A stretch of 64,000 nt of DNA from a virus. Lineage: Duplodnaviria; Heunggongvirae; Uroviricota; Caudoviricetes. Where the stretch lies: IMG/VR virus record IMGVR_UViG_3300029517_000186. One strand, 5' to 3'. Position 1 is the first letter of the stretch; each line of letters starts with the position of its first letter. Shown here one piece after another: positions 3,184 to 63,986 of this stretch. The position numbers were made by a program, and so were the translations under genes. The notes under the pieces are model-generated. The model ran no database searches. It was not told the DNA's origin and saw only the letters and a list, made by a program, of their open reading frames with translations.

Positions 3184-4119
3184 TTATTCTATTTTATTTA
3201 ATTCACCTGATTCTTTGTTAAATATAAATATATCTGAACTCAGATAATCTTCTTCTTCCTGAATACCAAATATCTTTAATGCCATTTGAATTTCTTCAGG
3301 AGTAAATTCACTGTATTTACATATCAACAGAATATGTGCTGTAACAGGAATAATGTATAAATTTGTTTTCAGTTTCTCTGAAATATTCTTAAGCAAATTA
3401 TTGTTCAGAATAGCACTTGTATTATAAAAGTCGATTACATTTTGAATTGCATATATTCCTTTAATACATTTGCTCTCAAACCCACCAGAATTACTTAGAA
3501 AAGATAATTCTTTCTTTGTCTTTTCATAATTATCATCATCTGCCAGTTGCGTCAAAAAATAATCACCTAATACACTGATAAAATATTTGTTGGAATATAT
3601 TGAATGAATTGCAAGATTGTACAATTCGTTTTCATTAATTTTCAGTATGTCCCTCATATAGTTATTATCAATTACAAACATTGTACCTTCTGAATTTTCT
3701 TTAGGTATGATCACATTATAAATTATTTCGAACTCATAAAATGGCTTATGAGGAATGCCGCTTAAATCTTCCATATTGTCCGGCTTTTGTATTAATTGAG
3801 GCATAATATAGTGTTTTATATCATTTGAATTAATTTCTGGAGCTAAATTATTAAGTTTATATTCACTACCATTAGAATTTTTGTTTCTATAAAATGCTTC
3901 AGATATTGACAATGCAATTTCTTCTATTGACGAATTATTTAAATATTGTTTATATAATTGATTTAATTTAAATTCTAAGGGACGCATAAACTGATTTTTA
4001 GAATGAAAAATAAGCTTATCTGATGTGTAAACTATATCTGTTGGTGTAATATCTTCAATATTTTGAAGTAATTCGAATTTAAGATGTTTAAGAAAATCTT
4101 CGTAATTCATTTTTTGCAT
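3184..4119 (-). CDS. hypothetical protein
   Basis: 311 aa; AAGGAGAA RBS; class II promoter at 4156. Confidence 0.6.
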   Translation of the reverse strand: MQKMNYEDFLKHLKFELLQNIEDITPTDIVYTSDKLIFHSKNQFMRPLEFKLNQLYKQYLNNSSIEEIALSISEAFYRNKNSNGSEYKLNNLAPEINSNDIKHYIMPQLIQKPDNMEDLSGIPHKPFYEFEIIYNVIIPKENSEGTMFVIDNNYMRDILKINENELYNLAIHSIYSNKYFISVLGDYFLTQLADDDNYEKTKKELSFLSNSGGFESKCIKGIYAIQNVIDFYNTSAILNNNLLKNISEKLKTNLYIIPVTAHILLICKYSEFTPEEIQMALKIFGIQEEEDYLSSDIFIFNKESGELNKIE

Positions 4120-4155
4120 ATAATTAGTTCTCCTTTTATTTAGTTATATTTTTAA

Positions 4156-4168
4156 TATGACAGAAAAA
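4156..4168 (-). promoter_or_regulatory. conserved promoter motif (class II: TTATGTAAA-N17-CTGTCATAT) for gene 3184..4119
   Basis: Plus strand reads TATGACAGAAAAA; TTTTACATAAAA box lies 17 nt away. Confidence 0.55.
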
Positions 4169-4317
4169 ATGAATTATTATTTTACATAAAATAATTGATG
4201 TGTATCAAAATAAGTCAGTAACTAAATGTAAATGCCTTTTATTTATTAAAATATCCCGTTTTTGTGTTCTTCTAAGCACTTTATTGGGTATACTATGCCT
4301 TTACTTGGGAAAAATAA

Positions 4318-4571
4318 TAACAATATATTGTACGTTTATTGTTGTATATTAGTTTAATATGTTAACTTTATTAACAATATATAGTTATTTAAGATTTATT
4401 AAAATATAGCTAAGATACAAAAATAATAACAATATATAGATATAAAATATGATTTAATATACATTAAAACTAACAACATTATGTTATAGAATAGAAAAAT
4501 TTGTGCAATAAAATTAACAATATATAGCTAAATATTTAATACATAAATGTAATAATGATAACAATATGTAG
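4318..4571. repeat. iteron-like array: five copies of TAACAATATATAG at 4318, 4372, 4427, 4515 and 4559
   Basis: 13-bp direct repeats spaced 54, 55, 88 and 44 bp (near multiples of 11) inside a 1.3 kb AT-rich non-coding region. Confidence 0.6.
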
Positions 4572-5504
4572 TAATGTATTATCCGTTGCATAGCCAATAA
4601 AATGCCTTATATGTGTCAGAATAATACCATGATGTAGTTATTATATGCTGATTTAAGAGATAAAAAATGTTAATTTGATAACATGTAATTGGTAATATTA
4701 GCAATTATATATGGATTAATTGGGTACAATAAACTGTATAATTAGTGAGAAAAATAAATATAACTGATTAATGGGATATAATTATTATTTACTAAAGTTA
4801 ATTAATGGAATTACTGGGAACATATATAGAAATGATAGAGTAAAGGAAATAGATCTAAGAGCAAATAAGAAAGAATTAGTGTATATGAATGCATCTATTG
4901 AGACAGAAATGGGATTATTGGGCTTACTAAGGCATTTGCAGGGCGAAGAATAGATTTACAGGAATCTAGTAATCATAATTTTTGTAAATATCATATATTA
5001 TATATAAGAAAATTATATGATTTATTGGTATATTAAAGGCATTAATTGGGATAAATGAAGTGCTTGCCAGAGACAGATAAGGAATTGCCAGGGAAATAAA
5101 CACAAAATGTATTAAGCTGATAAATGATATTGTATAAGGATATAACAATAATAGTTATACGCTTTTAATCCTTAATAATATTCTGGCGGTTATTATATTA
5201 AGTCTTAAAACGCTATTAAGGAATAATCAAATGTATTATATAAGGCTCTAATTTTTATATTTTAATAATAAAAAGCGTATCAATGAAAAAGAAAATAATA
5301 GAAGGGCTTTGAAGAAGGTGTATGACATATTACACTTAAAAGAAGTGTAATCATAAAAAATACAGCTACCTATTGATCAATGTCATTAAGTTAAGCTTTT
5401 GAGTATAAAAAAATAAAAACAGTCACTAATCTTGTAAAGAAAATGATATGATACCTCTTAAGTAGACATGGTAAATAACCAAAATCTATTTAAGGGGTAT
5501 TTTT

Positions 5505-6188
5505 ATGTCCAGAAAATCTAAGTATTCTATAGAACAGCGAGTACAAGCATGTGAAGACTATCACAATGGAACTCGTAGTTTAGAAGAAATATGTATAGCT
5601 CTCGGAACTACCAGAAAGAAAACTATCCGTGAGTGGTTAAAAAAATATGAGAAGTACGGAGTATCTGCTTTTCAGGAAAAGTCATATAACAAAAGTTATA
5701 CAAAAGAATTTAAAATTCAAGTAGTGGAAGAATATATAAGTGGTTATGGTTCACTAGAGGAACTGATTGTAAAATATGATATTTCTTCTACAACCCAACT
5801 ACGAAAATGGATTTCAGTGTATAATGCCAATAGAGAACTTAGGGACTATTGTCCAAAACCGGAGGTCTATATGGCAGAAGCAAGAAGAAAAACAAGCATT
5901 GAAGAACGCAAAGAAATCGTAAAGTATTGTATCGGACATAATCGTAATTATAAAGAAACTGCAAGTGCTTATGATGTCTCATACAATCAAGTCTATTCTT
6001 GGGTAAAAAAGTATGATGCACTAGGTGAAGAAGGATTAACAGATAAGCGTGGATGTCATAAAACGGATGAAGAGGTAGACGAATTGGAACGTCTTCGTCG
6101 GGAAAATGTACGTTTAAAGAAGCAACTCAAAGAAAAGGATATGTTAACGGAACTGTTAAAAAAAGTACAGGAATTCGAAAGGATGTGA
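5505..6188 (+). CDS. IS3-family transposase OrfA (HTH plus leucine zipper)
   Basis: 227 aa; two HTH regions; C-terminal LERLRRENVRLKKQLKEK zipper; AAGGGG RBS. Confidence 0.85.
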   Translation: MSRKSKYSIEQRVQACEDYHNGTRSLEEICIALGTTRKKTIREWLKKYEKYGVSAFQEKSYNKSYTKEFKIQVVEEYISGYGSLEELIVKYDISSTTQLRKWISVYNANRELRDYCPKPEVYMAEARRKTSIEERKEIVKYCIGHNRNYKETASAYDVSYNQVYSWVKKYDALGEEGLTDKRGCHKTDEEVDELERLRRENVRLKKQLKEKDMLTELLKKVQEFERM

Positions 6189-7150
6189 GGCTCGGAAAAC
6201 TTCGCTATAATTCGGAATTTATAGCAATAAAGTTTTTCTATGAAACAAAGAACTGGAGTATTAATTGGATGTGTAAACAGCTCGAAATATCAAGAGCTGC
6301 CTATTATAAGTGGTTGAATCGTGAGATACCTGAACAGGAAGCAGAAAATATGAAGTTGGCAGAACTTATAAAGGAGTACGATGAGCGCTTTAATCACATC
6401 CTGGGTTATAGAAGAATGACCTCTTGGATTAATCACTTTAACCATACTGATTATAAACCGAAGAGAGTACATCGAATTATGAAGAAGTTGGGTATTCATT
6501 CAGTCATTAGACGAAAGCAGAAAAAATATACTTCTTCGACACCGGAAGCAGTAGCTGAAAATAGATTAGGCAGAGACTTTTATGCAACTGCACCAAATGA
6601 GAAGTGGACAACTGATGTAACAGAGTTTAAGATTCCAGGTGAGAAAAAGAAACTTTATTTAAGTGCCATTCTTGACTTATATGATAGATACCCTGTTGCG
6701 TATGTTATCAGCACGAGAAATAATAATGAGCTCGTATTTAAAACCTTTGATAAAGCTATTGCCGCAAATCCTGAAGCTAAACCATTATTTCATAGTGATA
6801 GAGGTTTTCAGTATACAAGTAAGGTATTTCAAATGAAACTTAAGGAACATAAGATAGAACAATCTATGTCCAGAGTTGGACATTGTATAGATAATGGACC
6901 TACTGAAGGATTCTGGGGTATCATAAAATCAGAAATGTATCAGATGTACGATATAACAGATGAATCTTCATTAAGATTTGCAATAAAAGATTATATTAGA
7001 TTCTACAGTGAAGAACGACCACAAGACAGGTATCATTGCAAAACGCCACTAGATGTAAGAGCTGAAGCATTATCTACAGCAACACCACAACAGTATCTTA
7101 TTCCTAAAAATAAACGAATTGAAAAATATAAAGAGAAATGGTGTGCATAG
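6185..7150 (+). CDS. IS3-family transposase OrfB (DDE integrase core), made as an OrfAB fusion by -1 frameshift
   Basis: rve-type motifs WTTDVTEF, HSDRGFQYTS, CIDNGPTEGFWGIIKSE; overlaps orfA in the -1 frame. Confidence 0.85.
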   Translation: MRLGKLRYNSEFIAIKFFYETKNWSINWMCKQLEISRAAYYKWLNREIPEQEAENMKLAELIKEYDERFNHILGYRRMTSWINHFNHTDYKPKRVHRIMKKLGIHSVIRRKQKKYTSSTPEAVAENRLGRDFYATAPNEKWTTDVTEFKIPGEKKKLYLSAILDLYDRYPVAYVISTRNNNELVFKTFDKAIAANPEAKPLFHSDRGFQYTSKVFQMKLKEHKIEQSMSRVGHCIDNGPTEGFWGIIKSEMYQMYDITDESSLRFAIKDYIRFYSEERPQDRYHCKTPLDVRAEALSTATPQQYLIPKNKRIEKYKEKWCA

Positions 7151-7404
7151 AAAAACGACCGTACACTTTATACGGTCGTTTAGCAACACTTCATTTTAGA
7201 TATTTAACCTGTCTACTTGACAGGGGGCATATCAAAAGTGGCTGTTTTTTTTATTATAAATTCTTACAATTTATCCCTATACACATAGGTATAAATATGA
7301 TATACTTTCAGCAACATTTCTATAAACTAAATATGTCACTTCTCCGGGCATGTTATCATACTTTTTCATTCATACGATAACATCAATGAAGGGAGTGTAC
7401 GCCT

Positions 7405-7584
7405 ATGAATAGACTAAAGATGGGAGCCGGTTTGAATGTTCAAATTGGAAAAGCTTCTATCCGTTATAAGCAAGGTACTTTGCGTAATAAGTCACGCATT
7501 AAGTATAATTATGACGGTTATGAACTTTTTTGCATAATGCTAAAGAGCATTAAAAAAGCAACCTCTTTATGCTTGCCGGCGTAA
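7405..7584 (+). CDS. small hypothetical protein (59 aa) in a GC-richer insert
   Basis: AAGGGAG RBS; ATG at 7405; followed by the GCAACC...GGTTGC-TTTTT terminator at 7585..7600. Confidence 0.3.
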   Translation: MNRLKMGAGLNVQIGKASIRYKQGTLRNKSRIKYNYDGYELFCIMLKSIKKATSLCLPA

Positions 7585-7754
7585 GGTTGCTTTTTAAGTA
7601 ACTGAAAAATATAAGTGACATATCAGTTTATAGATATGTCTTTTTCTTGACATAAGTTTAAAGAAATCAAACATAAATGTCAAGAGTGTTTTTGATAATA
7701 AACGTGAATTTATTATATAATAAATTCTCCTTTAATATTAAAACTTAATATATA

Positions 7755-7767
7755 TATGACAGAAAAA
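7755..7767 (-). promoter_or_regulatory. orphan copy of the conserved promoter motif with no ORF downstream
   Basis: TATGACAGAAAAA; in the minus orientation it is followed by an AAAGGAGAA RBS but no start codon or ORF of 20 aa or more. Confidence 0.4.
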
Positions 7768-7788
7768 TAAAAATATACATAATAATTA

Positions 7789-7830
7789 AAAAACTGGTAC
7801 TAATTTATAAAAGAAAAGTACCAGTTTTTG
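7789..7830. terminator. bidirectional intrinsic terminator
   Basis: ACTGGTAC ... GTACCAGT stem flanked by an A-run and a T-run. Confidence 0.6.
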
Positions 7831-7870
7831 TATTTTAGGTGGCAATATTATATTTGAGTGAATTTCGTAA

Positions 7871-8356
7871 TTATTTCTGGTCTAATCCTTGCACCTTTCG
7901 TATTAAGATATATAGGACTTCTAAGTCGTCATCGCATTCTGCTAATGGATGAAAATAATCTCCTGTTAGTTTCATGTAATTTCTGCAATAAAAAGCCTTA
8001 GCACTTGGTAGTGTATGTAAATAAATAGCTTTTATTCCCATTGTATTTCTAGCCATTTTATCAATTATACCTATTATTTCAAAAATCTATGCAGCGATTG
8101 GTTTGTTTTCATTACCTTCTTTATAAAACACATTTTGATATTTTACATCGACACCAAACATGGTTATTTTAATTGCAGAAATTCCACATAATATATCATC
8201 TGTGTAGTCATTTCTTTCATCATCCACATCTCTGAAATAATAAGGTAATGAAGAAGCCGCTAAAGAAAAGTATGCTACAATTTCTTTCCCTTTAGTATTA
8301 TCAGTGTGTGTAACTAAATATGTTACAGCATCTCCTGTTTCCATATCCGAAAACAC
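7871..8356 (-). pseudogene. GNAT-like acetyltransferase fold (tentative) interrupted by an in-frame amber codon at 8087..8089
   Basis: ORFs 8087..8356 and 7871..8056 are in the same frame, separated only by TAG plus 10 sense codons; read through it gives a 161-aa protein; carries neither the element promoter motif nor a strong SD. Confidence 0.45.
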
Positions 8357-8587
8357 TTCATCTGAATTCAGGTTGATTATAGAAAGTCAGCCTTATTTCT
8401 ATGCAAATTTTTAGAATAAAAGAAAATACCTACCGCAGAATATCATCCACGATAGGTATTTTTGTTTTTACGACATCTTAACTAAATAGAGATTTAGTCG
8501 GCACTAATATCATTTTACATGTCAAGACTTGTGTGTGGTCTTAACTAAATGACATTGACCTATTGATAACTGCATTTTATTTATATA

Positions 8588-9616
8588 TTACATAAAAGAT
8601 TGTATATTATATCCTTTTCGTCTGAAACGAACTCTAATCTTTTTTATTGCTTTTGATTCAATCTGTCTGATTCGTTCTCTGGAAACATTCCATTCAGTAC
8701 CTATATCTTTTAAAGTTTTAACCTTTGAACCATATCCCATTCTACTCTTAATTACATATAATTCTCTAGGAGTGAGACAATCTTCAACTTCTTTCCAAAG
8801 CAGTTCATTCATTTCTTTTTGAATAATCGTATCTTCAACTTTAGGTTCAGGCACTTCTATATAATCAGCCAAACACGAATCGTCATGGCCTTCATCACTT
8901 TGAATAGGTGCATCTAACGAAACCAATTCATTAAAGCTCTGAATATGTACAAGCATTTCTTTAGTTAAAAGAGGATATCTTTGTTTTACTACATCATATA
9001 ATTCATCAATTGTAGGTTTTCTTTGAAGTTTATTAGTTAAATCCACAAATGTAGTCTTAACAAAAGAATCCTGTTCTCTTACATGTACAGGGAATCTAAC
9101 TAATAAATCATAATTGGCTAATTCTCTATATATACTCTGTCTAATCCAATGAGTTGCATAAGTTGAAAACGCATATCCTAATTTATAATCAAACATTTGT
9201 ATAGCTTTGTATAATCCGAAAATACCGGCCTGACATAAATCATCCATTTCAAAACTTTGCGTTTTAGCTGTAACAGCTTTAGCAATACTGATAACTAAAC
9301 GCATATTAGATAAAATCAATTTTTCTGTTATTTCCTTTTTCTTTTTAGGATGTTTTTTTATCTCTTCAAATAATTTAAGAGTTTCATCTTTGGATAAAAC
9401 CGGATAATCAGCAAATGATTTAATATAATAAGTTATATTATTTTCTAATAATAGTTTCTGTTTTTCATTTGAAATCTCTTTATCATTTAAAATATCGGTA
9501 TAATTATCCTCTGATAAAATATTTATGTTTTCTATTGGTTTATTTGTATCAAATAATTCATCAACATATTCATCTTTATTGTTTTTTTTATTTAATAATA
9601 AATTCTTATCTGCCAT
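8588..9616 (-). CDS. RNA polymerase sigma factor, sigma-70 family
   Basis: Region 2 motifs LVISIAK and YATHWIRQSI; region 4 HTH TLKDIGTEWNVSRERIRQIESKAIKKIR; AGAGGAG RBS. Confidence 0.9.
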   Translation of the reverse strand: MADKNLLLNKKNNKDEYVDELFDTNKPIENINILSEDNYTDILNDKEISNEKQKLLLENNITYYIKSFADYPVLSKDETLKLFEEIKKHPKKKKEITEKLILSNMRLVISIAKAVTAKTQSFEMDDLCQAGIFGLYKAIQMFDYKLGYAFSTYATHWIRQSIYRELANYDLLVRFPVHVREQDSFVKTTFVDLTNKLQRKPTIDELYDVVKQRYPLLTKEMLVHIQSFNELVSLDAPIQSDEGHDDSCLADYIEVPEPKVEDTIIQKEMNELLWKEVEDCLTPRELYVIKSRMGYGSKVKTLKDIGTEWNVSRERIRQIESKAIKKIRVRFRRKGYNIQSFM

Positions 9617-10939: not shown

Positions 10940-10968
10940 ATATTTTCCTCCAACCTTTCTAATATATA

Positions 10969-10981
10969 TATGACAGATACA
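10969..10981 (-). promoter_or_regulatory. class II promoter for the CPBP-ORF-sigma operon
   Basis: TATGACAGATAC with TTTACATAAAAAAA placed so that ATGTAAA-N17-CTGTCAT on the coding strand. Confidence 0.55.
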
Positions 10982-11051: not shown

Positions 11052-12737
11052 TTAGCATTTGCGTACTATTGAAGGGGCTGACATATCAGGGTTAATGAAT
11101 TTCTTACATAAATGTTCAATTCCAGTTGTTGAATCAAGCCAATATAAATAATCTCCATCAACGTCCACCAGATATTCATTAATAGAATCAAGAACATCGT
11201 TTACTTCGGAAACAGTACAAATAAATCTATATGAAGACTTATTTTTCTTTAAAGGTTTAACAGATTTAACAATAATCTGATATACAGTTTCGTCATCTGA
11301 AGATCTAAAATCATCTACTTGAATTTTCCCTGATAAACATAATTTAGCATCATTAACAAGTAAGTCTCTAATATTTGCATAATCCTTAGAAAAACATACA
11401 CCATTAATAGAACCTGTTTTATCTTCTACCTCAAAAGTTACCCATTCGTATCCATTTCTGTCCTTTCTTATAACAAGATTTTTAATTATACCAGATACAT
11501 CATTAACTTCTGTTGAAATATCAGAAATGGGATCTGTATAAATATTATACTCATCAATTGGATGCCCTGTAATATAAACACCTAACACTTCTTTTTCATC
11601 ATTTAGAATCTGACCTAAATCATCTTCTACATAATCAATATCTATATTTTCAAGATCATCTTCTAAGCTTTCTATAACTGTCTTAGCTGAATTGATACGT
11701 TTAATTATGGAATCCTTAGTTGGCATCTTTTTTGAAGTAACTTGAAAGGAAATATTTTCTTCTGAAATTTTTTCCTTAAACTCATCAAGATCAATATAAT
11801 CTTCCACAAATTCAATAACTTTACTTGCGTTTTCAATAAACTTACTCTTCTCTCTGATTTTCTTGATTGTATCCTGAATTTCTTTCATACAAATCATATC
11901 TAATGATATCATTGTTCTTGTATAACCAAGGCAATCAAAAGCACCTGCTTTAATTAAGGAACTTAATGCTTCTGCATTAATATTTGTTCGTTTGATAAAA
12001 TCCTTAATATCAGAATATTCTCCATTAGCATTTCTATCTTCAACAATTTTAGCTGCTTCTGCTCCAACATTCTTAATATTACTCAGACCATACAAAATAT
12101 TTCCATCTACAACATCACAATGTAAATTTGAAGCATTAATGTCCGGAGGCAATACCTTTACTCCAAAATCAAGAGCATCACTAATATCATCAGCGACTTC
12201 ATCAATCTTATCAGTATGATTTATTACATTTGTAAGATAATAAGCCGGATAATAATACTTAAGAAAAGCAGTCCAATATGATGTAACAGCATAAGCAGAG
12301 GCATGTGACTTATTAAAAGCATACTTAGCAAAATCAACCATCGCATCCCAGATTTTATGAGCAATTTCTTCTGGTATTCCATTTGCAATACAACCTGGTA
12401 CTAATGCTTCATTTTCTTTTTTAGTATCAGCATTGCCATATACAAAAGTGTGTCTTTCAGCATCAATTTCATCCTGATGTTTTTTTGACATAGCTCTACG
12501 GACTAAATCAGAACGCCCCCATGTATATCCTGCTAAATCACGAACAATCTGCATTACCTGTTCCTGATAAACTATCTGTCCATAAGTAGTTGACAAAATT
12601 GGCTCTAATTGAGGACATAAATATTTAATCTTAGATGCATCCTTTTTACCTTCTATGAAATCAGGTATAAACTTTTCAGGACCAGGACGATATAAAGCAT
12701 TCATTGCTATTAAATCTTCAATACCTGTTTTATTCAT
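11052..12737 (-). CDS. dnaE: DNA polymerase III alpha subunit (DnaE), C-terminal part of a split gene
   Basis: IEDLIAMNALYRPGP, YGQIVYQEQVMQIV, FAKYAFNKSHASAYAVTSYWTAFLKYYYP; begins exactly where the upstream ORF 18413..20962 ends in the DnaE alignment. Confidence 0.9.
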   Translation of the reverse strand: MNKTGIEDLIAMNALYRPGPEKFIPDFIEGKKDASKIKYLCPQLEPILSTTYGQIVYQEQVMQIVRDLAGYTWGRSDLVRRAMSKKHQDEIDAERHTFVYGNADTKKENEALVPGCIANGIPEEIAHKIWDAMVDFAKYAFNKSHASAYAVTSYWTAFLKYYYPAYYLTNVINHTDKIDEVADDISDALDFGVKVLPPDINASNLHCDVVDGNILYGLSNIKNVGAEAAKIVEDRNANGEYSDIKDFIKRTNINAEALSSLIKAGAFDCLGYTRTMISLDMICMKEIQDTIKKIREKSKFIENASKVIEFVEDYIDLDEFKEKISEENISFQVTSKKMPTKDSIIKRINSAKTVIESLEDDLENIDIDYVEDDLGQILNDEKEVLGVYITGHPIDEYNIYTDPISDISTEVNDVSGIIKNLVIRKDRNGYEWVTFEVEDKTGSINGVCFSKDYANIRDLLVNDAKLCLSGKIQVDDFRSSDDETVYQIIVKSVKPLKKNKSSYRFICTVSEVNDVLDSINEYLVDVDGDYLYWLDSTTGIEHLCKKFINPDMSAPSIVRKC

Positions 12738-18412: not shown

Positions 18413-20962
18413 CTATGAACATAACTTCTTAAGGTTATTCCTCATACCGGCTGACTCAAACTGGAAAACATTCTTAGTTCTTCCTTTTGCATATACTTCT
18501 TTGTATACCTTATCAGCTTTAGGACCCTCTAATGGAATATTCATTACATCAATTACTTCTCCTGTATCTCTCTGAATCATTCTGAGTGTGTCAGTAATAA
18601 TTGTAAGAGTTTTTAATCCAAGAAAATCCATTTTTAATAATCCATTAGCTTCGCACTGAATCATGTCCATTTCTGTAGTTTTAATTCCCTTTTTTCCATC
18701 TCTAATAGGAATATAATCAGTAACATCATTACTATCATAAATAATAACACCTGCGGCATGTTGTCCGTATGTCGTAAGCATACCTTCACAATGAGCTGCA
18801 ATATTAAGAATAGAAATAGCATCTGGATTACTATTATATTCATCCTTTAAGAAATCTAACAAAGAAACGCTGTCCTGAATATTAATGCCTAATTCATCAA
18901 CCTTATTAGTATCTTTCATGCCAACAATATCTTCAAAATTAGTTGCTTTAGCAGGCACTTTCTTACGAATCTGATCTCCTAAAGATAAGAATTTCTTTTC
19001 ATCATCATAAGCTTTCTTTCCATAATATCTTGCAGCATCTCTGATAGCACCTTTAGCCTGCTGCCTTGATTCTGTAATAATTCCAACAACAGCTTCACTA
19101 CCATATTTAGCTCTTACATACTCAATTGTCTTTTCTCTTACTCCAAGAGCAAGATCGCTATCGATATCAGGCATACTTACTCTTTCTGGATTTAAGAATC
19201 GTTCAAAAATCAGATTATACTTAAATGGATCAATTCCGGTAATACCAAGTAAATATGTAACCAATGAACCGGCACCTGAACCTCTTCCAATGCCTATTCC
19301 AATTCCGGTATTATAATTGTGAGCCTTAACATACTCTTTTGCACCTTCAATTGTTAAAGGTACTTCTGATAGTTTATCCATAGGTACTAATCCACAAATT
19401 CTTCCATATTCCAGGAAGTCCTTTACAATTAAATGATAATCGGCAAAGCCCATCTGAATGATAATATTAAGTTCGTATTCCATTCGTTTCTGATGTTCTT
19501 CATCCCATCCTTTTCCGTTAGGATATCTCCAATTAATTCCCTTAATTGCTTCAGATCTTAATAATTCGTTTGAGTCCTTGTTCTTATCAAATACTGGATA
19601 ATGATTAGATTTTTCTGGAATATAAGCACATCTTTTTCCAATTACATTTAAGTTATTAAGTGCTTCTGCAACCTGATCATCTGTTAATATAGCTGATAAG
19701 GCCTGAGCAAGTTCGTAAGGTGTTTTTACATATAACTCTTTATCTGATTCCGACTCACTTATCTTAATAAATCTTAAAAATTTTGCTACATTACGCATAT
19801 CAATACTTCTATCAGAATTATCTGCCATATGTGCATCATTAGCAGCAACTAATGGGATATTATGCTTCCTTGCTAACTGAGCTAACACAGGATATGTCCT
19901 GCTTTCCATTTCAAGACCATGATTCTGAACTTCAATGTAATAATTACCTGCTCCAAAAATTTCCTGATAAAAAAGCATTGTCTTTTCTGCTTCAGACATT
20001 AATTCTATTGGGCTTTTCTTTAATGATTCATAATGCTGTATCTTATTTTCATGATTAATATATTCCTCTACCTTAAGACTTATATCCTTTAACTCGGCTT
20101 TCTTAGCATTAACTAATTTTCTGACATTAGGAATTTTATCTTTAGCTTCCAGAATTTTATTATTTATCTCCTCATATTCATTAATCAGTTTAATAAGCTC
20201 TGGATCATCATCATTTAAACACTTCCTTGCATCTCTTAATTTTCTTGAGATCTGTGTTCTTTCTGATTTAAGTTCCTTGGAATCACGAATATTAATTAAT
20301 TCATCTAAATCTGCCGATACCTTTTCAAATTCATCTTTAGCTGAAAGATATTCTTTATCATCAGGACTTATACAATCACGTATAACTAGCTCGTCTTTTT
20401 CAGTAGTATGCTGCTGTGCTTTTCTTTCTCTGTTAATCATTTTATCCAAAACATCATCTGATAATAATTGCAGAGCTGGTGCACCCGAAACGCAAGCTGA
20501 AGTTGCTATTATATCACCGTTAAAGTTATATTTCTTTAAATCTGATATTGTAATAACAGGCTTTCCCATTCTTTTTTCAGAAGCCTTAGAATTTAACTTA
20601 TCAATAATATGCTTGCCTCTTTCTGAAGTGGCTAACATAATCATATGGCCAATCTGCTCATTTATCTTAAATGGTGGCACTTCAATATAAGCCTCTACGC
20701 CATAAATGATATTAAAAGGATGTTCCTCAGTACTTATTTTCTTAGCGTAATCAATACATGTTTGCATTGCTGAAAATGATGCATGGTCCGTAACAGCAAA
20801 TTTAGTATATCCTGCATTAAATGCAGCATCTAAATAACTTTTAGGTTCATCTACGGCATCAAACAAAGAGCCTCCTGGATGGTTATGTTCACACACTGTA
20901 ACTCCTGACTCAATAACCTTTTTTGTTAATTCTCCAATTTTTACATGTTCAAACATTGACAT
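18413..20962 (-). CDS. dnaE: DNA polymerase III alpha subunit (DnaE), N-terminal part (PHP plus palm) of a split gene
   Basis: PHP VCEHNHPGG ... FAVTDHASF; palm GRGSGAGSLVTYLLGITGIDPFKYNLIFERFLNPERVSMPDIDSD; ends ...NVFQFESAGMRNNLKKLCS at the junction where the C-part resumes. Confidence 0.9.
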   Translation of the reverse strand: MSMFEHVKIGELTKKVIESGVTVCEHNHPGGSLFDAVDEPKSYLDAAFNAGYTKFAVTDHASFSAMQTCIDYAKKISTEEHPFNIIYGVEAYIEVPPFKINEQIGHMIMLATSERGKHIIDKLNSKASEKRMGKPVITISDLKKYNFNGDIIATSACVSGAPALQLLSDDVLDKMINRERKAQQHTTEKDELVIRDCISPDDKEYLSAKDEFEKVSADLDELINIRDSKELKSERTQISRKLRDARKCLNDDDPELIKLINEYEEINNKILEAKDKIPNVRKLVNAKKAELKDISLKVEEYINHENKIQHYESLKKSPIELMSEAEKTMLFYQEIFGAGNYYIEVQNHGLEMESRTYPVLAQLARKHNIPLVAANDAHMADNSDRSIDMRNVAKFLRFIKISESESDKELYVKTPYELAQALSAILTDDQVAEALNNLNVIGKRCAYIPEKSNHYPVFDKNKDSNELLRSEAIKGINWRYPNGKGWDEEHQKRMEYELNIIIQMGFADYHLIVKDFLEYGRICGLVPMDKLSEVPLTIEGAKEYVKAHNYNTGIGIGIGRGSGAGSLVTYLLGITGIDPFKYNLIFERFLNPERVSMPDIDSDLALGVREKTIEYVRAKYGSEAVVGIITESRQQAKGAIRDAARYYGKKAYDDEKKFLSLGDQIRKKVPAKATNFEDIVGMKDTNKVDELGINIQDSVSLLDFLKDEYNSNPDAISILNIAAHCEGMLTTYGQHAAGVIIYDSNDVTDYIPIRDGKKGIKTTEMDMIQCEANGLLKMDFLGLKTLTIITDTLRMIQRDTGEVIDVMNIPLEGPKADKVYKEVYAKGRTKNVFQFESAGMRNNLKKLCS

Positions 20963-22225: not shown

Positions 22226-22263
22226 AATGAAAAATCTCCTTTTTTTATTTTATTCAAATAAAA

Positions 22264-22276
22264 TATGACAGAAAAA
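22264..22276 (-). promoter_or_regulatory. conserved promoter motif
   Basis: TATGACAGAAAAA. Confidence 0.55.
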
Positions 22277-30977: not shown

Positions 30978-31010
30978 AAAATATCTCCTTTATTATTTTG
31001 ATAAAGAAAA

Positions 31011-31023
31011 TATGACAGAAAAA
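31011..31023 (-). promoter_or_regulatory. conserved promoter motif
   Basis: TATGACAGAAAAA upstream of the helicase gene. Confidence 0.55.
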
Positions 31024-42595: not shown

Positions 42596-42632
42596 TATTT
42601 CTTCTCCTTTATTAATTATATTCTGATAGATA

Positions 42633-42645
42633 TATGACAGAAAAA
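42633..42645 (-). promoter_or_regulatory. conserved promoter motif
   Basis: TATGACAGAAAAA. Confidence 0.55.
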
Positions 42646-43002: not shown

Positions 43003-44769
43003 TTATAAATCAAATACTAGCCTGTAATTTGCATTAAGAGCAATACTTACGTCATTATGACTTAAGCTATGTTTATTCATAAATCCGCAGGCATTAAGTT
43101 TAAAGATGATATCGTCAACATCATCTTTCCATAGTCCCCATTTTTTATCCTGATAATATATTTTTTCAAATAAATTAAAAAAGCTTGAATTTAAAATAAA
43201 TTCCTTTATTTTCTTTTTAAGTATTCTATATTTGTTTGCATATTTTTTTATTGTATCTAACTTTTCTTTATATTTTTTTACAAGCTTTTGTTTGTCTACT
43301 ATGGGATTCCTCCGTGTAGCGCTAACAATTTTTCTTTTATTAACCTCTTTGATATTGTTTTTTATCTGTTCAAGTCTGTCAGCATCTTCAGTAAGTTTTC
43401 GTGAAATTACATTTGAAGATACATGCAATTCTTTCATTATTTCCTTATATGTTTTACCCATTGCATATAATTCTACAATTTTATTATATTTGAATTCTCT
43501 TCGCTTTTTATTTCTTTCTACCTGTTCTTTTTTCTTTAACTTTTCTTCCATTCTATAGCCTTCAAGATTTTTAAGACCATATTCTCTTCTTGCTGTAAGT
43601 GGATCCAATCCTAGCCCTTTTATGAAGGTCGTTGTTTTAAATTTACACCAATTCACATTATTAACATTATTAAAATCTTTGAATGTAAATAATTCTAATT
43701 CATCAATTGATAATGGCTCTGAAGTTTTATTTGTTAGCTTCAGCATTTCCTTTTTTGCAGTTTCATCATCATACGCAGCTCTCAAAGTATTGTATGCGTA
43801 ATAGGCAAAATCTAATTTATCAACATATTTAGGAACAGCATCCTTAGCAAAATTATTAAGGAATTCTATTCTGTTTATTAAATTATCCTGTAAATATGAA
43901 GGAAGGTTTAATTTATTGCTGCTTTTGCTGTCTGAATCTTCATAGTTTACAATATCATGCAATCTGTCATTATTCTTTATAAAATATAAAGGGTGTAATG
44001 TGTTATATAAATCATGTACAGTTGTTTTATTTTTATTAATAAATAATAATGTTGGAGTCTCAAAATTTATTGCATCATAAGTTCCAGGTACACGAATTAA
44101 AGAGTCACATTTTACTGACTCTTTATCTACTTCAGGGAAACCTAATGAAATTCCATTCATGTCTATTTGTTTATTTATAACCTGTGACAATACCTTTCCT
44201 ACCAGATTATATTTCCACAAGAGATCCTTTGATAATTCTTCAATGCCATATATTAATTCAACTTCATTATATATAGCGTTAATAATATTAGGCTTTGGGG
44301 CATCTCCTAAAATACAATCATAGTTATTGAGGAAATATTGAATATTGTCTTTATAATCTTCTTCTGGCCATATTATTCTTACACATATAGCTTTTAGACA
44401 GAATATATTTTTTTCACATCTAGCCATTCGCTTTTGTATTCTACTATGTGGTGTCTTACCAGTACTATACCCTGAAGTAGAAAAACCTATTTCAATTTTG
44501 TCGTAGAATTCTTTATCTGAAACAACAGATGTCTTTAATGGGTTAATGCACATATATCTATTATATTCTTCGTTCAAATAATCCTTATTGAGATTAGAAA
44601 GCACATCTTCTGCATTAGACCTAAAAACTGCTGTCTTAGATGAATCATTAACATTTAATGCAACAAATTGATAATGGCATTGATACTGCTTATTCTCTTG
44701 TTCTGTTATAAATTTAATAGCTCTCTTCTCATTTTTATCTGCACAATTTAAAAATTTTTGTTTTGTCAT
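43003..44769 (-). CDS. hypothetical protein with an HTH motif near the C-terminus
   Basis: GAGGT RBS and ATG at 44769 (MTKQKFLN...); HTH GKTYKEIMKELHVSSNVISRKL; the track extension past the promoter is rejected. Confidence 0.55.
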   Translation of the reverse strand: MTKQKFLNCADKNEKRAIKFITEQENKQYQCHYQFVALNVNDSSKTAVFRSNAEDVLSNLNKDYLNEEYNRYMCINPLKTSVVSDKEFYDKIEIGFSTSGYSTGKTPHSRIQKRMARCEKNIFCLKAICVRIIWPEEDYKDNIQYFLNNYDCILGDAPKPNIINAIYNEVELIYGIEELSKDLLWKYNLVGKVLSQVINKQIDMNGISLGFPEVDKESVKCDSLIRVPGTYDAINFETPTLLFINKNKTTVHDLYNTLHPLYFIKNNDRLHDIVNYEDSDSKSSNKLNLPSYLQDNLINRIEFLNNFAKDAVPKYVDKLDFAYYAYNTLRAAYDDETAKKEMLKLTNKTSEPLSIDELELFTFKDFNNVNNVNWCKFKTTTFIKGLGLDPLTARREYGLKNLEGYRMEEKLKKKEQVERNKKRREFKYNKIVELYAMGKTYKEIMKELHVSSNVISRKLTEDADRLEQIKNNIKEVNKRKIVSATRRNPIVDKQKLVKKYKEKLDTIKKYANKYRILKKKIKEFILNSSFFNLFEKIYYQDKKWGLWKDDVDDIIFKLNACGFMNKHSLSHNDVSIALNANYRLVFDL

Positions 44770-44804
44770 AAATAACCTCGCTATGAAAATCTTATATATA
44801 TCTT

Positions 44805-44817
44805 TATGACAGACAAA
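44805..44817 (-). promoter_or_regulatory. class II-like promoter (TGTGTAA-N17-CTGTCAT)
   Basis: TATGACAGACAAAAAAA plus TTCTTACACAAAAAAAA. Confidence 0.45.
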
Positions 44818-44880
44818 AAAATTTTTTTTCTTACACAAAAAAAATAGTGCCATTTCTGACACTATTAAAACTTGGATATA

Positions 44881-62707: not shown

Positions 62708-62725
62708 AAGTGTATATATACACTT
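62708..62725. promoter_or_regulatory. perfect 18-bp palindrome AAGTGTATATATACACTT between divergent promoters; oriT candidate for the MobV relaxase
   Basis: Lies 55 bp upstream of the mob start; resembles MobV-type oriT inverted repeats with a GTGT core. Confidence 0.45.
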
Positions 62726-62741
62726 TATTATTTTTTCTGTC

Positions 62742-62757
62742 ATATCTTAATTAATAT
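62742..62757 (+). promoter_or_regulatory. conserved promoter motif in plus orientation (TTTTTTCTGTCATATC) for mob
   Basis: 34 nt upstream of the GAGG RBS and ATG of 62781. Confidence 0.5.
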
Positions 62758-62780: not shown

Positions 62781-63986
62781 ATGTCAGATAAATCTTATAC
62801 AATTTGCAAAATCATGAAATTAAATTCACTAAATGCTAATGGCAGATATAGTGTTAGATCTGCAGGCGAACATAATTTAAGGGAGTATGTACCATATAAT
62901 TGTGATTCTGAAAAACAAAATTTAAATAAAGATATTGTTGAACTTCCTAAAATGCTTAATGGAAGCCATTACTCCTATCAGACTGTTGTAAAAAATGCAA
63001 TTAAAGAAATTCAAGATAATGGTACAATGGGAAAAGTTCGTCCTGATGCAGTTTATGCATTTGAAATTTGTCTAGGTTTTAATCCGGCAGATGGAAAGGA
63101 CTGGAAAGATATTATTTCAGAAAAAGACCTAGATAAATGGTGTCAGGAAAATAAAAAATGGCTTGAAGAGCGTTTTGGTAAAAACAATTTAAAGCATTTA
63201 GTATTACATATGGATGAATCAACTCCTCATTTACATGCTTTAATTGTTCCTATTAATAATAAAGGTAGGTTAAGTGCTAAATCATTTATTAATGGCCCGA
63301 CTGATTTATCAAAATTGCAGACTGAATATGCAAAGAAAGTAGGTTCACAATTTGGGTTATCAAGGGGTGTTTCTAAAAAAGAAATAAGAGCTTCTAAAGA
63401 ATTGGAAAATAAATTATATCCTAACTATTCTGATATATCTAAATTCAAAAAAGCCACTCTTGGTAAAATAATGGATGAAAGTGAAATAATAAAGGTTAAC
63501 CCGAAAGAATTGGATAGTAATGGGCATATTTTGCCATCTTACGAAGAAAGAGTGTTAGGTGAATTTCAGAATGTAAAATATCATTATTTAACTTTAGAAA
63601 ATTCATTACGCCAGGAATTAAAAGAAGAACTAAAGCAAGAAATAAAAAAAGTAGATACAGACTTTGAAAGGATTGCACTTGAAAAAGAAGAATTTGAAAA
63701 AGAAAAAAAGAAAAAAGATGCAGAGTTAAAACAAAAAGAAGAGGAACTTATTTCAAAAGAACATGAGTTACAGAAGCTATTAGGTGTATTAGAAAGTACA
63801 AAAAAATCAATCAGGGAAATCAAAAAAGATTATACATATTTTGAAACATTAAATCGTGCCCTTAAGCATGAATCTAATAAGGATATTGCTAAAGATTTAT
63901 ATAAACAGTTAAATAAGTTAGTTGAAGAACAGCATAAAAGAGATAAAGAAAATATTCATGCAATTAAACAATTTGATATAAGATAA
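62781..63986 (+). CDS. mob: MobV/Pre-family plasmid mobilisation relaxase
   Basis: N-terminal HNLRE motif; motif III HMDESTPHLHALIVPI; C-terminal coiled coil. Confidence 0.85.
   Translation: MSDKSYTICKIMKLNSLNANGRYSVRSAGEHNLREYVPYNCDSEKQNLNKDIVELPKMLNGSHYSYQTVVKNAIKEIQDNGTMGKVRPDAVYAFEICLGFNPADGKDWKDIISEKDLDKWCQENKKWLEERFGKNNLKHLVLHMDESTPHLHALIVPINNKGRLSAKSFINGPTDLSKLQTEYAKKVGSQFGLSRGVSKKEIRASKELENKLYPNYSDISKFKKATLGKIMDESEIIKVNPKELDSNGHILPSYEERVLGEFQNVKYHYLTLENSLRQELKEELKQEIKKVDTDFERIALEKEEFEKEKKKKDAELKQKEEELISKEHELQKLLGVLESTKKSIREIKKDYTYFETLNRALKHESNKDIAKDLYKQLNKLVEEQHKRDKENIHAIKQFDIR

What the first reader, a model, noticed from the sequence alone, without database searches (positions are those of the whole stretch)
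4120..5443. AT-rich 1.3 kb non-coding region with a helically phased iteron array, a candidate origin or partition site, carrying an IS insertion at its edge
Five copies of TAACAATATATAG (one reads TG, one has a GT variant) start at 4318, 4372, 4427, 4515 and 4559. The spacings of 54, 55, 88 and 44 bp are close to multiples of 11, as in plasmid and phage iterons. A second family, (G)ATTAAT(T)GGG, occurs at 4722, 4765 and 5040. No credible ORF is present; the 60-aa plus-strand ORF 4771..4953 lacks an RBS. The IS3-family element sits immediately right of this region at 5444.
Basis: seen in the sequence. Interest (0 to 1): 0.6.

Follow-up and report, generated by a model that had tools for sequence, protein, structure and literature searches.

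The report
Phased protein-binding site array, gut megaplasmid
The repeats are real: eight copies of a 16-bp near-palindromic protein-binding site, all on one face of the DNA helix, conserved at the same place in related giant gut-bacterial plasmids; they are probably a plasmid maintenance or control site, not the replication origin.

Summary
Window 4318-4694 carries eight sites, five strong and three degenerate. Each is a 16-bp imperfect dyad, TAAC-N8-GTTA, and the spacings are 54, 55, 44, 44, 44, 66 and 54 bp.

Five diverged relatives have the same motif at the same syntenic place, with the same spacing classes of 44, 55 and 66 bp. Their split DnaE C-terminal halves are 48-70% identical to the window's. 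In some of them both arms of the dyad change together (TACCA-N6-TGGTA).

The IS3 element (5444-7234, 3-bp AAA target duplication) is confirmed against an IS-free contig that is otherwise identical.

The replicon looks like a large, 28% GC conjugative element of Lachnospiraceae, seen on contigs of 260-586 kb.

An origin is unlikely:
- Relatives carry Rep_3 genes elsewhere, with different classical iterons beside them.
- No strand or skew switch occurs at the array.
- No Rep, ParA or ParB gene was detected in the window.
- Single copies of the motif sit at two Rep_3 promoters in relatives.

My best reading is a cooperative array for a dimeric plasmid regulator, centromere-like or control-type. 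The binding protein is unidentified.

The parts
4318..4333 (-). Site 1, the one nearest the DUF5688 gene. Minus strand reads GTACAATATATTGTTA.
4372..4387 (-). Site 2, the best dyad: TAACTATATATTGTTA.
4427..4442 (-). Site 3: TATCTATATATTGTTA.
4471..4486 (-). It splits the reported 88-bp gap into 44 + 44.
4515..4530 (-). Site 5: TAGCTATATATTGTTA.
4559..4574 (-). Site 6: TTACTACATATTGTTA.
4625..4640 (-). Site 7, degenerate: TAACTACATCATGGTA.
4679..4694 (.). Site 8, degenerate: plus strand reads TAACATGTAATTGGTA. It passes the matrix threshold in strain L010, where 4685 is A rather than G.
4155..4191 (-). Promoter-like element of the DUF5688 gene. It has the element-wide motif TTTCTGTCATAT (4155-4166) and the upstream block TTTTATGTAAAA (about 4180-4191). 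It is separate from the array.
5321..5360 (-). Conserved block at the upstream end of the gene-free stretch: TTTTTTATGATTA, then 19 nt, then ATGTCATA. It has the same architecture as the element's promoter-like motif and points toward the array. It is conserved in W, L094 and L098.
4695..5320 (.). Gene-free spacer with GC skew reversed relative to the flanking genes. It has no conserved ORF, no Rfam match and no excess RNA structure. Its sequence is not conserved between lineages.
5444..7234 (+). IS3-family insertion sequence, 1791 bp. orfA is 5505-6188 and orfB is 6185-7150. Ends are TG...CA with imperfect inverted repeats of about 34 bp. The 3-bp AAA duplication lies at 5441-5443 and 7235-7237.
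5388..8532 (.). Strain-variable segment that holds the IS. It is absent from 8 of 11 related contigs (L001, L003, L004, L006-L008, L010, L011) and is flanked by a direct repeat of about 43 bp (5345-5387 and 8533-8575). It contains two short unannotated ORFs (8087-8356, 7871-8056; one reading frame interrupted by a stop) and an orphan promoter-like motif with a ribosome-binding site but no ORF.
3184..4119 (-). DUF5688 gene, the first gene downstream of the array. It is not conserved at this position in other lineages.
8588..9616 (-). Sigma-70-family gene, the last conserved gene upstream of the gene-free stretch.

Best explanation
Window 4318-4694 is a cis-acting array of eight 16-bp dyad-symmetric sites for one sequence-specific, probably dimeric, DNA-binding protein. 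The centres lie 4, 5 or 6 turns of about 11 bp apart, so every bound dimer faces the same side of the helix. The dimers could therefore bind cooperatively and build one large nucleoprotein complex.

The array sits at the junction between the conserved replication-gene block (split DnaE, Rce1-like, sigma) and a variable downstream block of a large conjugative element of Lachnospiraceae.

I infer that it is a maintenance or control locus of the kind represented by KorB, omega and sopC. In that kind, a plasmid regulator forms a centromere-like complex on the array, and in relatives also occupies single operators at the rep3 promoter. I infer that it is not the site where replication starts.

Shown here: the sites, their phasing, their conservation and arm covariation, their uniqueness, and their separation from Rep_3 iterons.

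Inferred: protein binding, dimer stoichiometry, cooperative assembly, and the maintenance or control role. The binding protein is unknown.
For: 1. The sites are confined to one locus and are phased. R is 0.98 at an 11.0-bp period.

2. The same motif and architecture occur at the syntenic position in L094, L098, L100, L101 and L103. Their DnaE C-terminal halves are 70, 64, 53, 48 and 53% identical to the window's. Spacings pool into three modes: 43-47, 53-57 and 65-66 bp. A matrix built without L101 and L103 finds their arrays.

3. The arms change symmetrically between lineages: TAAC..GTTA in the window, TACCA..TGGTA in L100 and L101. This is what a dimer on a dyad predicts.

4. Within the window's lineage, none of about 57 variable columns falls in the five strong sites, where 3.6 would be expected. 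Eight fall in the array spacers.

5. The strongest sites outside arrays include single dyads at the Rep_3 promoters. In L103 it is TACCACTATATTGGTA (18.8 bits), about 95 bp upstream of the start codon. In L100 it is a 12.7-bit site about 75 bp upstream of the rep3 start, just downstream of a TTGACT -35-like hexamer.

6. Relatives are plasmid-like, with ParA and Rep_3. The window's element carries a Mob_Pre relaxase and a type IV coupling protein.

7. The element-wide promoter-like motif is different, and the DUF5688 gene has its own copy of it. The array is therefore not simply that gene's promoter.
Against: - No DNA-binding protein is conserved next to the array. The upstream neighbour in five lineages is a membrane-anchored protein of unknown function, and in the window it is a sigma factor. 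Downstream genes differ between lineages.
- The array is 5-7 kb from the parA genes seen in L100, L101 and L103. The ParA genes of L100 and L102 have their own adjacent repeats.
- No motif copy lies at the parA promoters.
- Four related loci (L099, L102, L227, L228) show no array in the 12-22 kb available.
- The window's own rep and par genes were not found, so the link to rep control is untested in this lineage.
Confidence: 0.4

Rival explanations
1. A purely transcriptional operator or roadblock array. A repressor binds the phased dyads and silences or blocks transcription that enters from the conserved upstream promoter-like block (5321-5360). This would keep the downstream accessory genes, and rep3 in relatives, off until the element enters a new cell. 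No role in segregation.
For: - Dyad sites are the usual form of dimeric repressor operators.
- Single copies sit at rep3 promoters.
- All sites have the same orientation relative to transcription.
- No terminator-like site lies between the upstream promoter-like block and the DUF5688 gene.
- An unrelated prophage-like contig (L309) has TACCAC-N4-GTGGTA dyads 44 and 69 bp apart beside a Cro/CI-type HTH gene.
Against: - Eight phased sites over 377 bp is far more than repression needs.
- No site overlaps the DUF5688 promoter-like element, which lies about 130 bp away.
- No repressor gene lies nearby.
- Sigma-70-type promoter matches are not enriched in the region (18 found against 16.7 expected).
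Confidence: 0.25
2. A replication origin or replication-control (incompatibility or handcuffing) locus. An initiator would bind the repeats and melt adjacent AT-rich DNA, or pair plasmid copies.
For: - Helical phasing and 12-16% GC.
- Position at the end of a block of replication genes.
- A conserved promoter-like block transcribing toward the array, as in transcription-activated origins.
- Dyad-symmetric iterons exist in lambdoid origins (established knowledge).
- No Rep_3 gene was seen in the W, L094 or L098 lineages, so their origin is unmapped.
Against: - L100, L101 and L103 have both the array and a separate Rep_3 gene. Where clear repeats are present beside Rep_3 genes in relatives (L100, L102, L106), they are unrelated to the array motif.
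- The motif is nearly the same in L100 and L101, although their Rep_3 proteins are only 27% identical.
- Genes stay on the same strand and skew keeps the same sign on both sides for at least 85 kb. The local skew bump is explained by the IS and a 0.75-kb spacer.
- No DnaA box lies in the region.
- No Rep gene was detected in the window.
Confidence: 0.12
3. An array of NrdR-box-like sites bound by the host repressor of ribonucleotide reductase genes. It would titrate NrdR or couple plasmid functions to the dNTP supply.
For: - NrdR boxes are 16-bp partial palindromes with conserved C4, A6, A8, T9, T11 and G13 and an AT-rich core (PMC13584703).
- All five strong window sites match all six positions.
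- NrdR needs box centres an integer number of helical turns apart (PMC12051234).
- A conserved host factor would explain why the motif is stable across diverged plasmids.
- One relative (L227) carries nrdD.
Against: - Known NrdR pairs have spacers of 15-16 or 24-27 bp. Here the spacers are about 28, 39 and 50 bp.
- Each L103 site lacks either C4 or G13, which are critical for NrdR binding.
- The invariant outer TA..TA positions are not NrdR features.
- No ribonucleotide reductase gene lies downstream.
- Host NrdR boxes could not be retrieved for comparison.
Confidence: 0.08
4. Functionless remnants of a tandem duplication in fast-evolving AT-rich spacer DNA.
For: The surrounding stretch is a variable zone with an indel, an IS and two short ORFs in one frame broken by a stop. 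Most of the 1.3 kb is not conserved between lineages.
Against: The motif, its phasing and its position persist across lineages whose flanking spacer DNA no longer aligns. The arms covary, and the sites are free of SNPs.
Confidence: 0.05

Closest known systems
F-plasmid sopC centromere: 12 tandem 43-bp units, each with a 16-bp inverted repeat bound by SopB (established knowledge)
   Same: An array of 16-bp dyads with centres about four helical turns apart, present as one locus per replicon, on a large low-copy conjugative replicon.
   Different: sopC lies directly downstream of sopAB and its units are near-identical tandem repeats. Here only the dyads are conserved, spacings mix 44, 55 and 66 bp, and no parAB operon is adjacent. 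No ParB-like gene was found.
Global regulator-centromere proteins: RK2 KorB with its OB palindromes, and Inc18 omega with its heptad arrays (established knowledge)
   Same: One motif serves both as an operator at a replication-gene promoter and as a cluster elsewhere on the plasmid. This matches the array plus the single rep3-promoter sites in L100 and L103.
   Different: KorB sites are single and dispersed. Omega sites are contiguous 7-bp repeats at the parA and copy-control promoters. Here no copy lies at the parA promoters.
Rep_3-type iteron origins, as predicted beside Rep_3 in the 'Hodor' gut megaplasmids (PMC12934698) and seen in relatives L100, L102 and L106
   Same: A repeat-rich, AT-rich non-coding stretch of 1 kb or more in a giant gut plasmid.
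   Different: True Rep_3 iterons here are 13-21-bp repeats immediately upstream of rep3: about 13-29 copies, in both orientations in L100 and L106, tandem with a 29-bp period in L102. The array has a different motif, dyad symmetry, wider spacing and no adjacent rep gene.
NrdR box pairs upstream of ribonucleotide reductase operons (PMC12051234, PMC13584703)
   Same: A 16-bp partial palindrome with C4, G13 and an AT-rich core, and centres spaced by whole helical turns.
   Different: Pairs rather than arrays of 5-8. Spacers of 15-16 or 24-27 bp rather than 28, 39 or 50. Always at nrd promoters.
Mycobacteriophage Bxb1 'stoperators' (established knowledge)
   Same: Repressor sites in one orientation relative to transcription, lying inside transcribed non-coding DNA.
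   Different: Stoperators are asymmetric 13-mers scattered genome-wide, not a single phased cluster.

Membership tests
Iteron-type (Rep_3) replication origin | Contiguous direct repeats of about 17-22 bp, with a period of about 22 bp, bound by Rep monomers | tested here: not met
   The units are 16-bp imperfect dyads with centres 44-66 bp apart.
Iteron-type (Rep_3) replication origin | An initiator (rep) gene adjacent to the repeats | tested here: not met
   No Rep family was found among the window ORFs scanned with Pfam, NCBIfam or PHROGs. In L100, L101 and L103 the Rep_3 gene lies 3-6 kb from the array, and in L100 it has a different repeat family beside it.
Iteron-type (Rep_3) replication origin | Replication starts there (skew or gene-orientation switch, autonomous replication) | tested here: inconclusive
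   No lasting skew or strand switch was seen over at least 85 kb. The whole replicon was not available, and the replication assay is not possible with these tools.
sopC / parS-type plasmid centromere | A cluster of repeated units, each with a dyad-symmetric binding site for the centromere-binding protein | tested here: met
   Eight dyads are phased at multiples of 11 bp, and the cluster is unique in the window plus flanks.
sopC / parS-type plasmid centromere | Adjacent to, or inside, the parA-parB operon | tested here: not met
   No ParA or ParB was detected in the window. In relatives the array is 5-7 kb from parA, and L100 and L102 have separate repeats next to parA.
sopC / parS-type plasmid centromere | Binds a cognate centromere-binding protein, stabilises a plasmid in cis and exerts incompatibility | not testable with these tools
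   This needs EMSA or ChIP and stability assays.
NrdR box | 16-bp partial palindrome with C4, A6, A8, T9, T11 and G13 | tested here: inconclusive
   Met by the five strong window sites. Matches are 4-5 of 6 in L100, L101 and most L094 and L098 sites. Each L103 site lacks either C4 or G13.
NrdR box | Two boxes separated by 15-16 bp (or 24-27 bp) upstream of an RNR operon | tested here: not met
   Spacers are about 28, 39 and 50 bp, in arrays of 4-8 sites, with no nrd gene downstream.
Repressor operator array | Dyad sites overlapping or flanking a regulated promoter, with a cognate repressor gene nearby | tested here: inconclusive
   Single sites lie at or next to the rep3 promoters in L100 and L103. 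In the window the array is about 130 bp from the DUF5688 promoter-like element. No HTH gene was found nearby.
IS3 family (the neighbouring element) | orfA (HTH) and overlapping orfB (DDE/rve), TG...CA terminal inverted repeats, 3-bp target duplication | tested here: met
   Pfam finds HTH_Tnp_1 and rve. Ends are TGATATG...CATATCA, AAA is duplicated, and the empty site is seen in L005.

The most novel reading that the evidence does not exclude
The array is a decoy for a conserved host nucleotide-sensing repressor (NrdR or a similar factor). A giant plasmid would carry eight in-phase NrdR-like boxes to soak up the host repressor. That would raise dNTP synthesis, or tie its own rep promoter to the dNTP pool. 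This would be a new way for a plasmid to manipulate host metabolism.
Probability: 0.08. Interest if true: 0.8.

Novelty: new variant of a known kind. Interest (0 to 1): 0.5.

Why it matters
The element belongs to a family of very large, low-GC conjugative elements that is common in human gut metagenomes. Its proteins are indexed in 193-374 blocks of the assembly collection. The family has no close relative among 72,556 deposited plasmids or 50,697 phage records.

A conserved, phased cis-element with covarying arms is a concrete handle on how such elements are maintained or regulated. It gives an exact 16-bp probe for fishing out the binding protein. It also gives a testable fragment for stability and incompatibility assays in Lachnospiraceae, where genetic tools and plasmid biology are scarce.

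The result also warns against calling a locus an origin from repeats and AT-richness alone.

Tried and rejected
- DNA searches of the region and of 25 kb around it against plasmid and phage collections gave only IS3 hits.
- tblastn of the DUF5688 protein against plasmids found nothing. tblastn of the DnaE C-terminal half found only chromosomal-level homologs at 38% identity or less.
- The genome-contig scan with the DnaE C-terminal half returned only chromosomal dnaE genes at about 40% identity, plus two short fragments.
- The word-indexed protein search for DUF5688 returned only near-identical sequences.
- AlphaFold on DUF5688 without an alignment gave pLDDT 45, which is unusable. No fold search was run. 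The PDB sequence search was empty. No paper mentions DUF5688.
- Attempts to find the window lineage's own Rep_3 failed. The viral scan with a Rep_3 alignment hit only an unrelated contig. The metagenome scan found nothing. Walking 10 kb further along an IMG/VR contig found no Rep or ParA.
- The scan for pairs of TACCA-N6-TGGTA returned mostly unrelated short-period tandem repeats. None encoded relatives of this family.
- RNA folding of the spacer on both strands gave z-scores of about 0. Rfam was empty at E up to 1.
- Sigma-70 promoter and terminator scans were not enriched. There were no DnaA boxes in the region.
- Reading the sites as tandem extended -10 promoters (TGnTAnnnT) was set aside. 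The left arm is also conserved and covaries, and the element uses a different, pervasive promoter-like motif.
- An IHF-site resemblance was rejected because Firmicutes lack IHF (my own knowledge).
- The protein just upstream of the array in relatives was rejected as the binder. It has an N-terminal membrane helix and is absent from the window.
Full report
**What is in the sequence**

Between the start of a DUF5688 gene (3184-4119, minus strand) and an IS element lies 1.3 kb without a credible gene. The only ORFs there are 41-60 aa. None has a Pfam hit, and no Rfam family matches.

The 13-mer TAACAATATATAG occurs exactly at 4372, 4427 and 4515. It occurs with one mismatch at 4318 and 4559. The only other match with one mismatch or fewer in 64 kb is at 2143 on the other strand.

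Read in the direction of the genes, each copy is a 16-bp imperfect dyad, TAnCTATATATTGTTA. The second copy is nearly perfect (TAAC-N8-GTTA). The right half, TATTGTTA, is invariant.

A position weight matrix recovers three weaker sites at 4471, 4625 and 4679. The centres are then 54, 55, 44, 44, 44, 66 and 54 bp apart. Phase coherence for the seven sites 4318-4625 is 0.98 at a period of 11.0 bp and 0.19 at 10.5 bp. GC falls to 12-16% over the array.

**The IS element**

The DUF5688 protein is encoded on human metagenome contigs of 260-586 kb. One of these, L005, is 100% identical to the window on both sides of 5444-7234 but lacks that segment.

The element has TGATATG...CATATCA ends and imperfect inverted repeats of about 34 bp. 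It has an HTH orfA and an overlapping rve orfB. It duplicated AAA on insertion, because the empty site reads CTTGTAAAGAAAAGTGGCTG.

The IS lies inside a strain-variable segment (5388-8532) that 8 of the 11 related contigs lack. That segment is bounded by a direct repeat of about 43 bp. It contains two short unannotated ORFs, apparently one reading frame interrupted by a stop, and an orphan promoter-like motif with a ribosome-binding site but no ORF. The IS therefore did not hit the conserved core of the region.

**What replicon this is**

The window is 28% GC, and nearly every gene is on the minus strand. It encodes the following:
- a DnaE split in its finger domain
- a 5'-3' exonuclease and a primase-like protein
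- RecA, RecJ and two UvrD-type helicases
- a sigma-70-family protein and a DNA methylase
- a penicillin-binding protein, a GGDEF protein and an HD-GYP protein
- a PARP-like protein and a Mob_Pre relaxase

Ten kilobases beyond the right end of the window lies a type IV coupling protein. The genes there are again on the minus strand.

There is no close relative among deposited plasmids or phages. NCBI names the 99%-identical DnaE fragment from a Lachnospira pectinoschiza MAG. IMG/VR lists two contigs of this lineage as viral. The same mislabelling was reported for the unrelated, 44-47% GC 'Hodor' gut megaplasmids (PMC12934698).

I conclude that this is probably a large conjugative plasmid-like element of Lachnospiraceae. 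Circularity was not shown.

**Conservation in relatives**

Homologs of the split DnaE C-terminal half gave a graded series of related contigs. Five lineages have a gene-free stretch of 0.95-1.36 kb at the same place, just after the conserved DnaE / Rce1-like block. These are L094 (70% identity), L098 (64%), L100 (53%), L103 (53%) and L101 (48%). In its distal part each stretch has an array of 4-8 copies of the same dyad.

The motif drifts symmetrically across lineages:

| Lineage | Left arm | Right arm |
|---|---|---|
| Window | TAAC | GTTA |
| L094, L098 | TACCA | TGTTA |
| L100, L101 | TACCA | TGGTA |
| L103 | TACTA or TACCA | TGGTA or TAGTA |

A matrix trained without L101 and L103 finds both of their arrays.

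The 31 pooled adjacent spacings form three modes, at 43-47 (13 spacings), 53-57 (12) and 65-66 (5). One outlier is 20 bp.

Across 3.1 Mb of fetched DNA, clusters of three or more sites occur only in these six lineages. Outside the dyads, the spacer DNA no longer aligns between lineages. The one exception is a block of about 60 bp at the upstream end.

Within the window's own lineage, none of about 57 variable columns falls in the five strong sites, against 3.6 expected. Eight fall in the spacers between sites.

Taken together, this is the signature of a selected protein-binding array. It is not a chance repeat or a recent duplication.

**Why an origin is unlikely**

1. Relatives with the array also carry a Rep_3 initiator elsewhere. 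Where the repeats are clear, it has its own repeat clusters:
   - about 13 copies of AAGTTATGAAnAATnTGGAG upstream of rep3 in L100
   - 29 copies of a 17-mer at a 29-bp period in L102
   - AATTCAGACAAAT repeats in L106

   None of these resembles the dyad.
2. The array motif is essentially the same in L100 and L101, yet their Rep_3 proteins are only 27% identical. Rep_3 is therefore an unlikely binder.
3. Gene orientation and the sign of GC skew are the same on both sides of the array for at least 85 kb. The local skew bump at 3-8 kb is caused by the plus-strand IS and by a 0.75-kb spacer with reversed skew.
4. No DnaA box lies in the region. No Rep, ParA or ParB family was detected among the window ORFs I scanned.

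The caveat is that I could not find the rep gene of the window's own lineage. A second, unconventional origin cannot be excluded.

**Clues to function**

Strong sites outside the arrays are rare. In chromosomal control loci there is about one hit of 10 bits or more per 55 kb.

Two of the strongest outside sites lie at Rep_3 promoters:
- In L103, TACCACTATATTGGTA (18.8 bits) lies about 95 bp upstream of the rep3 start codon.
- In L100, a 12.7-bit site lies about 75 bp upstream of the rep3 start, just downstream of a TTGACT -35-like hexamer.

L102 has one perfect TACCAAAAAATTGGTA downstream of its parA operon.

This pattern is a cluster plus single operators at a replication-gene promoter. It recalls plasmid global regulators that double as centromere-binding proteins, such as KorB of RK2 and omega of Inc18. 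The array itself resembles sopC of F, which has 16-bp dyads every 43 bp. These comparisons rest on established knowledge, not on a test here.

Several observations argue against a simple partition site:
- The array is 5-7 kb from the parA genes seen in relatives.
- Two of those parA genes have their own adjacent repeats. L102 has a 55-bp unit repeated at least 18 times directly upstream of parA.
- No dyad lies at the parA promoters.
- No DNA-binding gene is conserved beside the array. The upstream neighbour in five lineages is a membrane-anchored protein family that is absent from the window. Downstream genes differ between lineages.

**Not simply a promoter**

The element has a striking promoter-like motif of its own, TTTTTCTGTCATAT. 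The 12-mer TTTCTGTCATAT has 34 matches with one mismatch or fewer, against 1.4 expected. The 34 matches are nearly all on the minus strand (28 of 34). In a looser scan for the 8-mer core, about 45 minus-strand copies mostly lie some 30-40 nt upstream of a ribosome-binding site and start codon.

The DUF5688 gene has its own copy at 4155-4166, about 130 bp from the nearest dyad.

A variant of the same two-block architecture, TTTTTTATGATTA then 19 nt then ATGTCATA, forms the conserved block at 5321-5360. It points through the spacer toward the array. No terminator-like site lies in between. The array may therefore also meet incoming transcription, which keeps the operator or roadblock reading alive.

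The spacer shows no excess RNA structure on either strand.

**NrdR resemblance**

The five strong window sites match all six conserved NrdR-box positions: C4, A6, A8, T9, T11 and G13 (PMC13584703). NrdR also requires spacing by whole helical turns (PMC12051234).

Against this, known NrdR spacers are 15-16 or 24-27 bp, whereas here they are about 28, 39 and 50 bp. The L103 sites lack one of the two critical G/C positions. No RNR gene follows the array. I keep this as a low-probability but interesting alternative.

**Verdict**

The origin interpretation is not supported. The partition interpretation is possible but unproven.

I commit, at about 40%, to this reading: a cooperative, single-face nucleoprotein array for a dimeric plasmid regulator, with a maintenance or control role that is centromere-like and linked in relatives to rep3 promoter control.

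The rivals and my estimates are:
- a purely transcriptional operator array, 25%
- an origin or incompatibility locus, 12%
- an NrdR-like host-factor array, 8%
- a neutral repeat, 5%

The remaining ~10% is unassigned, for functions not considered here.

It is a new variant of a known kind of plasmid cis-element, in a giant gut element family with no relative in the plasmid and phage collections searched.

Noticed in passing
window-wide, e.g. 4155-4166, 10968-10979, 22263-22274, 31010-31021, 42632-42643, 62734-62745: An element-specific promoter-like motif, TTTTTCTGTCATAT. The 12-mer TTTCTGTCATAT has 34 matches with one mismatch or fewer, against 1.4 expected. The 34 matches are nearly all on the coding (minus) strand (28 of 34); in a looser 8-mer scan about 45 minus-strand copies mostly lie some 30-40 nt upstream of a ribosome-binding site and start codon, often just after a terminator hairpin. 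A subclass has TTTTATGTAAAA about 17-20 nt upstream. The motif is enriched in the window and L094 lineages, which both carry the sigma gene. It is absent or nearly so from L100, L101 and L103. The sigma-70-family gene at 8588-9616 is a candidate reader.
   Followed up: partly
window 18413-20962 and 11052-12737 (minus strand): The DNA polymerase III alpha gene (dnaE) is split within the finger domain into two genes 5.7 kb apart, with an exonuclease gene and other genes between them. The C-terminal half is a separate gene in every related contig fetched, and the N-terminal half is seen as a separate gene in those that show it. L094 has a further split with an HNH endonuclease gene in the gap.
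   Followed up: partly
window 62709-62726: A perfect 18-bp palindrome, AAGTGTATATATACACTT, lies about 55 bp upstream of the Mob_Pre relaxase gene (62781-63986). It is a candidate oriT. Similar ACACTT/AAGTGT arms occur in the conserved block at 5330-5350.
   Followed up: no
window 5388-8532: A strain-variable segment bounded by a direct repeat of about 43 bp (5345-5387 and 8533-8575). It contains two short ORFs in what looks like one reading frame broken by a stop (8087-8356, 7871-8056; no Pfam hit), a 59-aa plus-strand ORF (7405-7584), and a promoter-like motif with a ribosome-binding site at 7765-7724 followed by no ORF.
   Followed up: partly
L102 2588-3671 and 11842-13047: A related plasmid-like contig has a 55-bp unit repeated at least 18 times directly upstream of parA, which makes it a candidate centromere. 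It also has 29 copies of a 17-bp iteron at a 29-bp period upstream of Rep_3.
   Followed up: partly
window 4695-5320, and the equivalent stretch in L094, L098, L100 and L103: The gene-free DNA just upstream of the array has GC skew opposite to the flanking genes (-0.18 to -0.39 in gene orientation) in five of six lineages. Its sequence is not conserved. The cause is unknown.
   Followed up: partly
L094/L098/L100/L101/L103 (e.g. L094 11052-12026); L099 4013-5302: A family of 285-429-aa proteins with an N-terminal membrane helix and no Pfam hit lies immediately upstream of the array in five lineages. It is missing from the window.
   Followed up: partly
L227 1-2104 and 14737-18489: One relative carries an anaerobic ribonucleotide reductase gene (nrdD, with an ATP-cone) next to the dnaE N-terminal half. 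It also carries a Cas12a-like gene.
   Followed up: no
L327 7916-8520 (also L342): An unrelated 33% GC metagenome contig has nine TACC-N8-GGTA dyads spaced mostly 63-66 bp apart. They lie directly upstream of a weak sigma-70-like gene and a DNA polymerase III beta-like gene. This echoes the array-beside-sigma arrangement in the window.
   Followed up: partly
window 43003-44862 (minus strand): A 619-aa protein has a weak sigma-70/ECF-like match (NCBIfam E = 4e-4). It may be a second sigma-like gene in the element.
   Followed up: no
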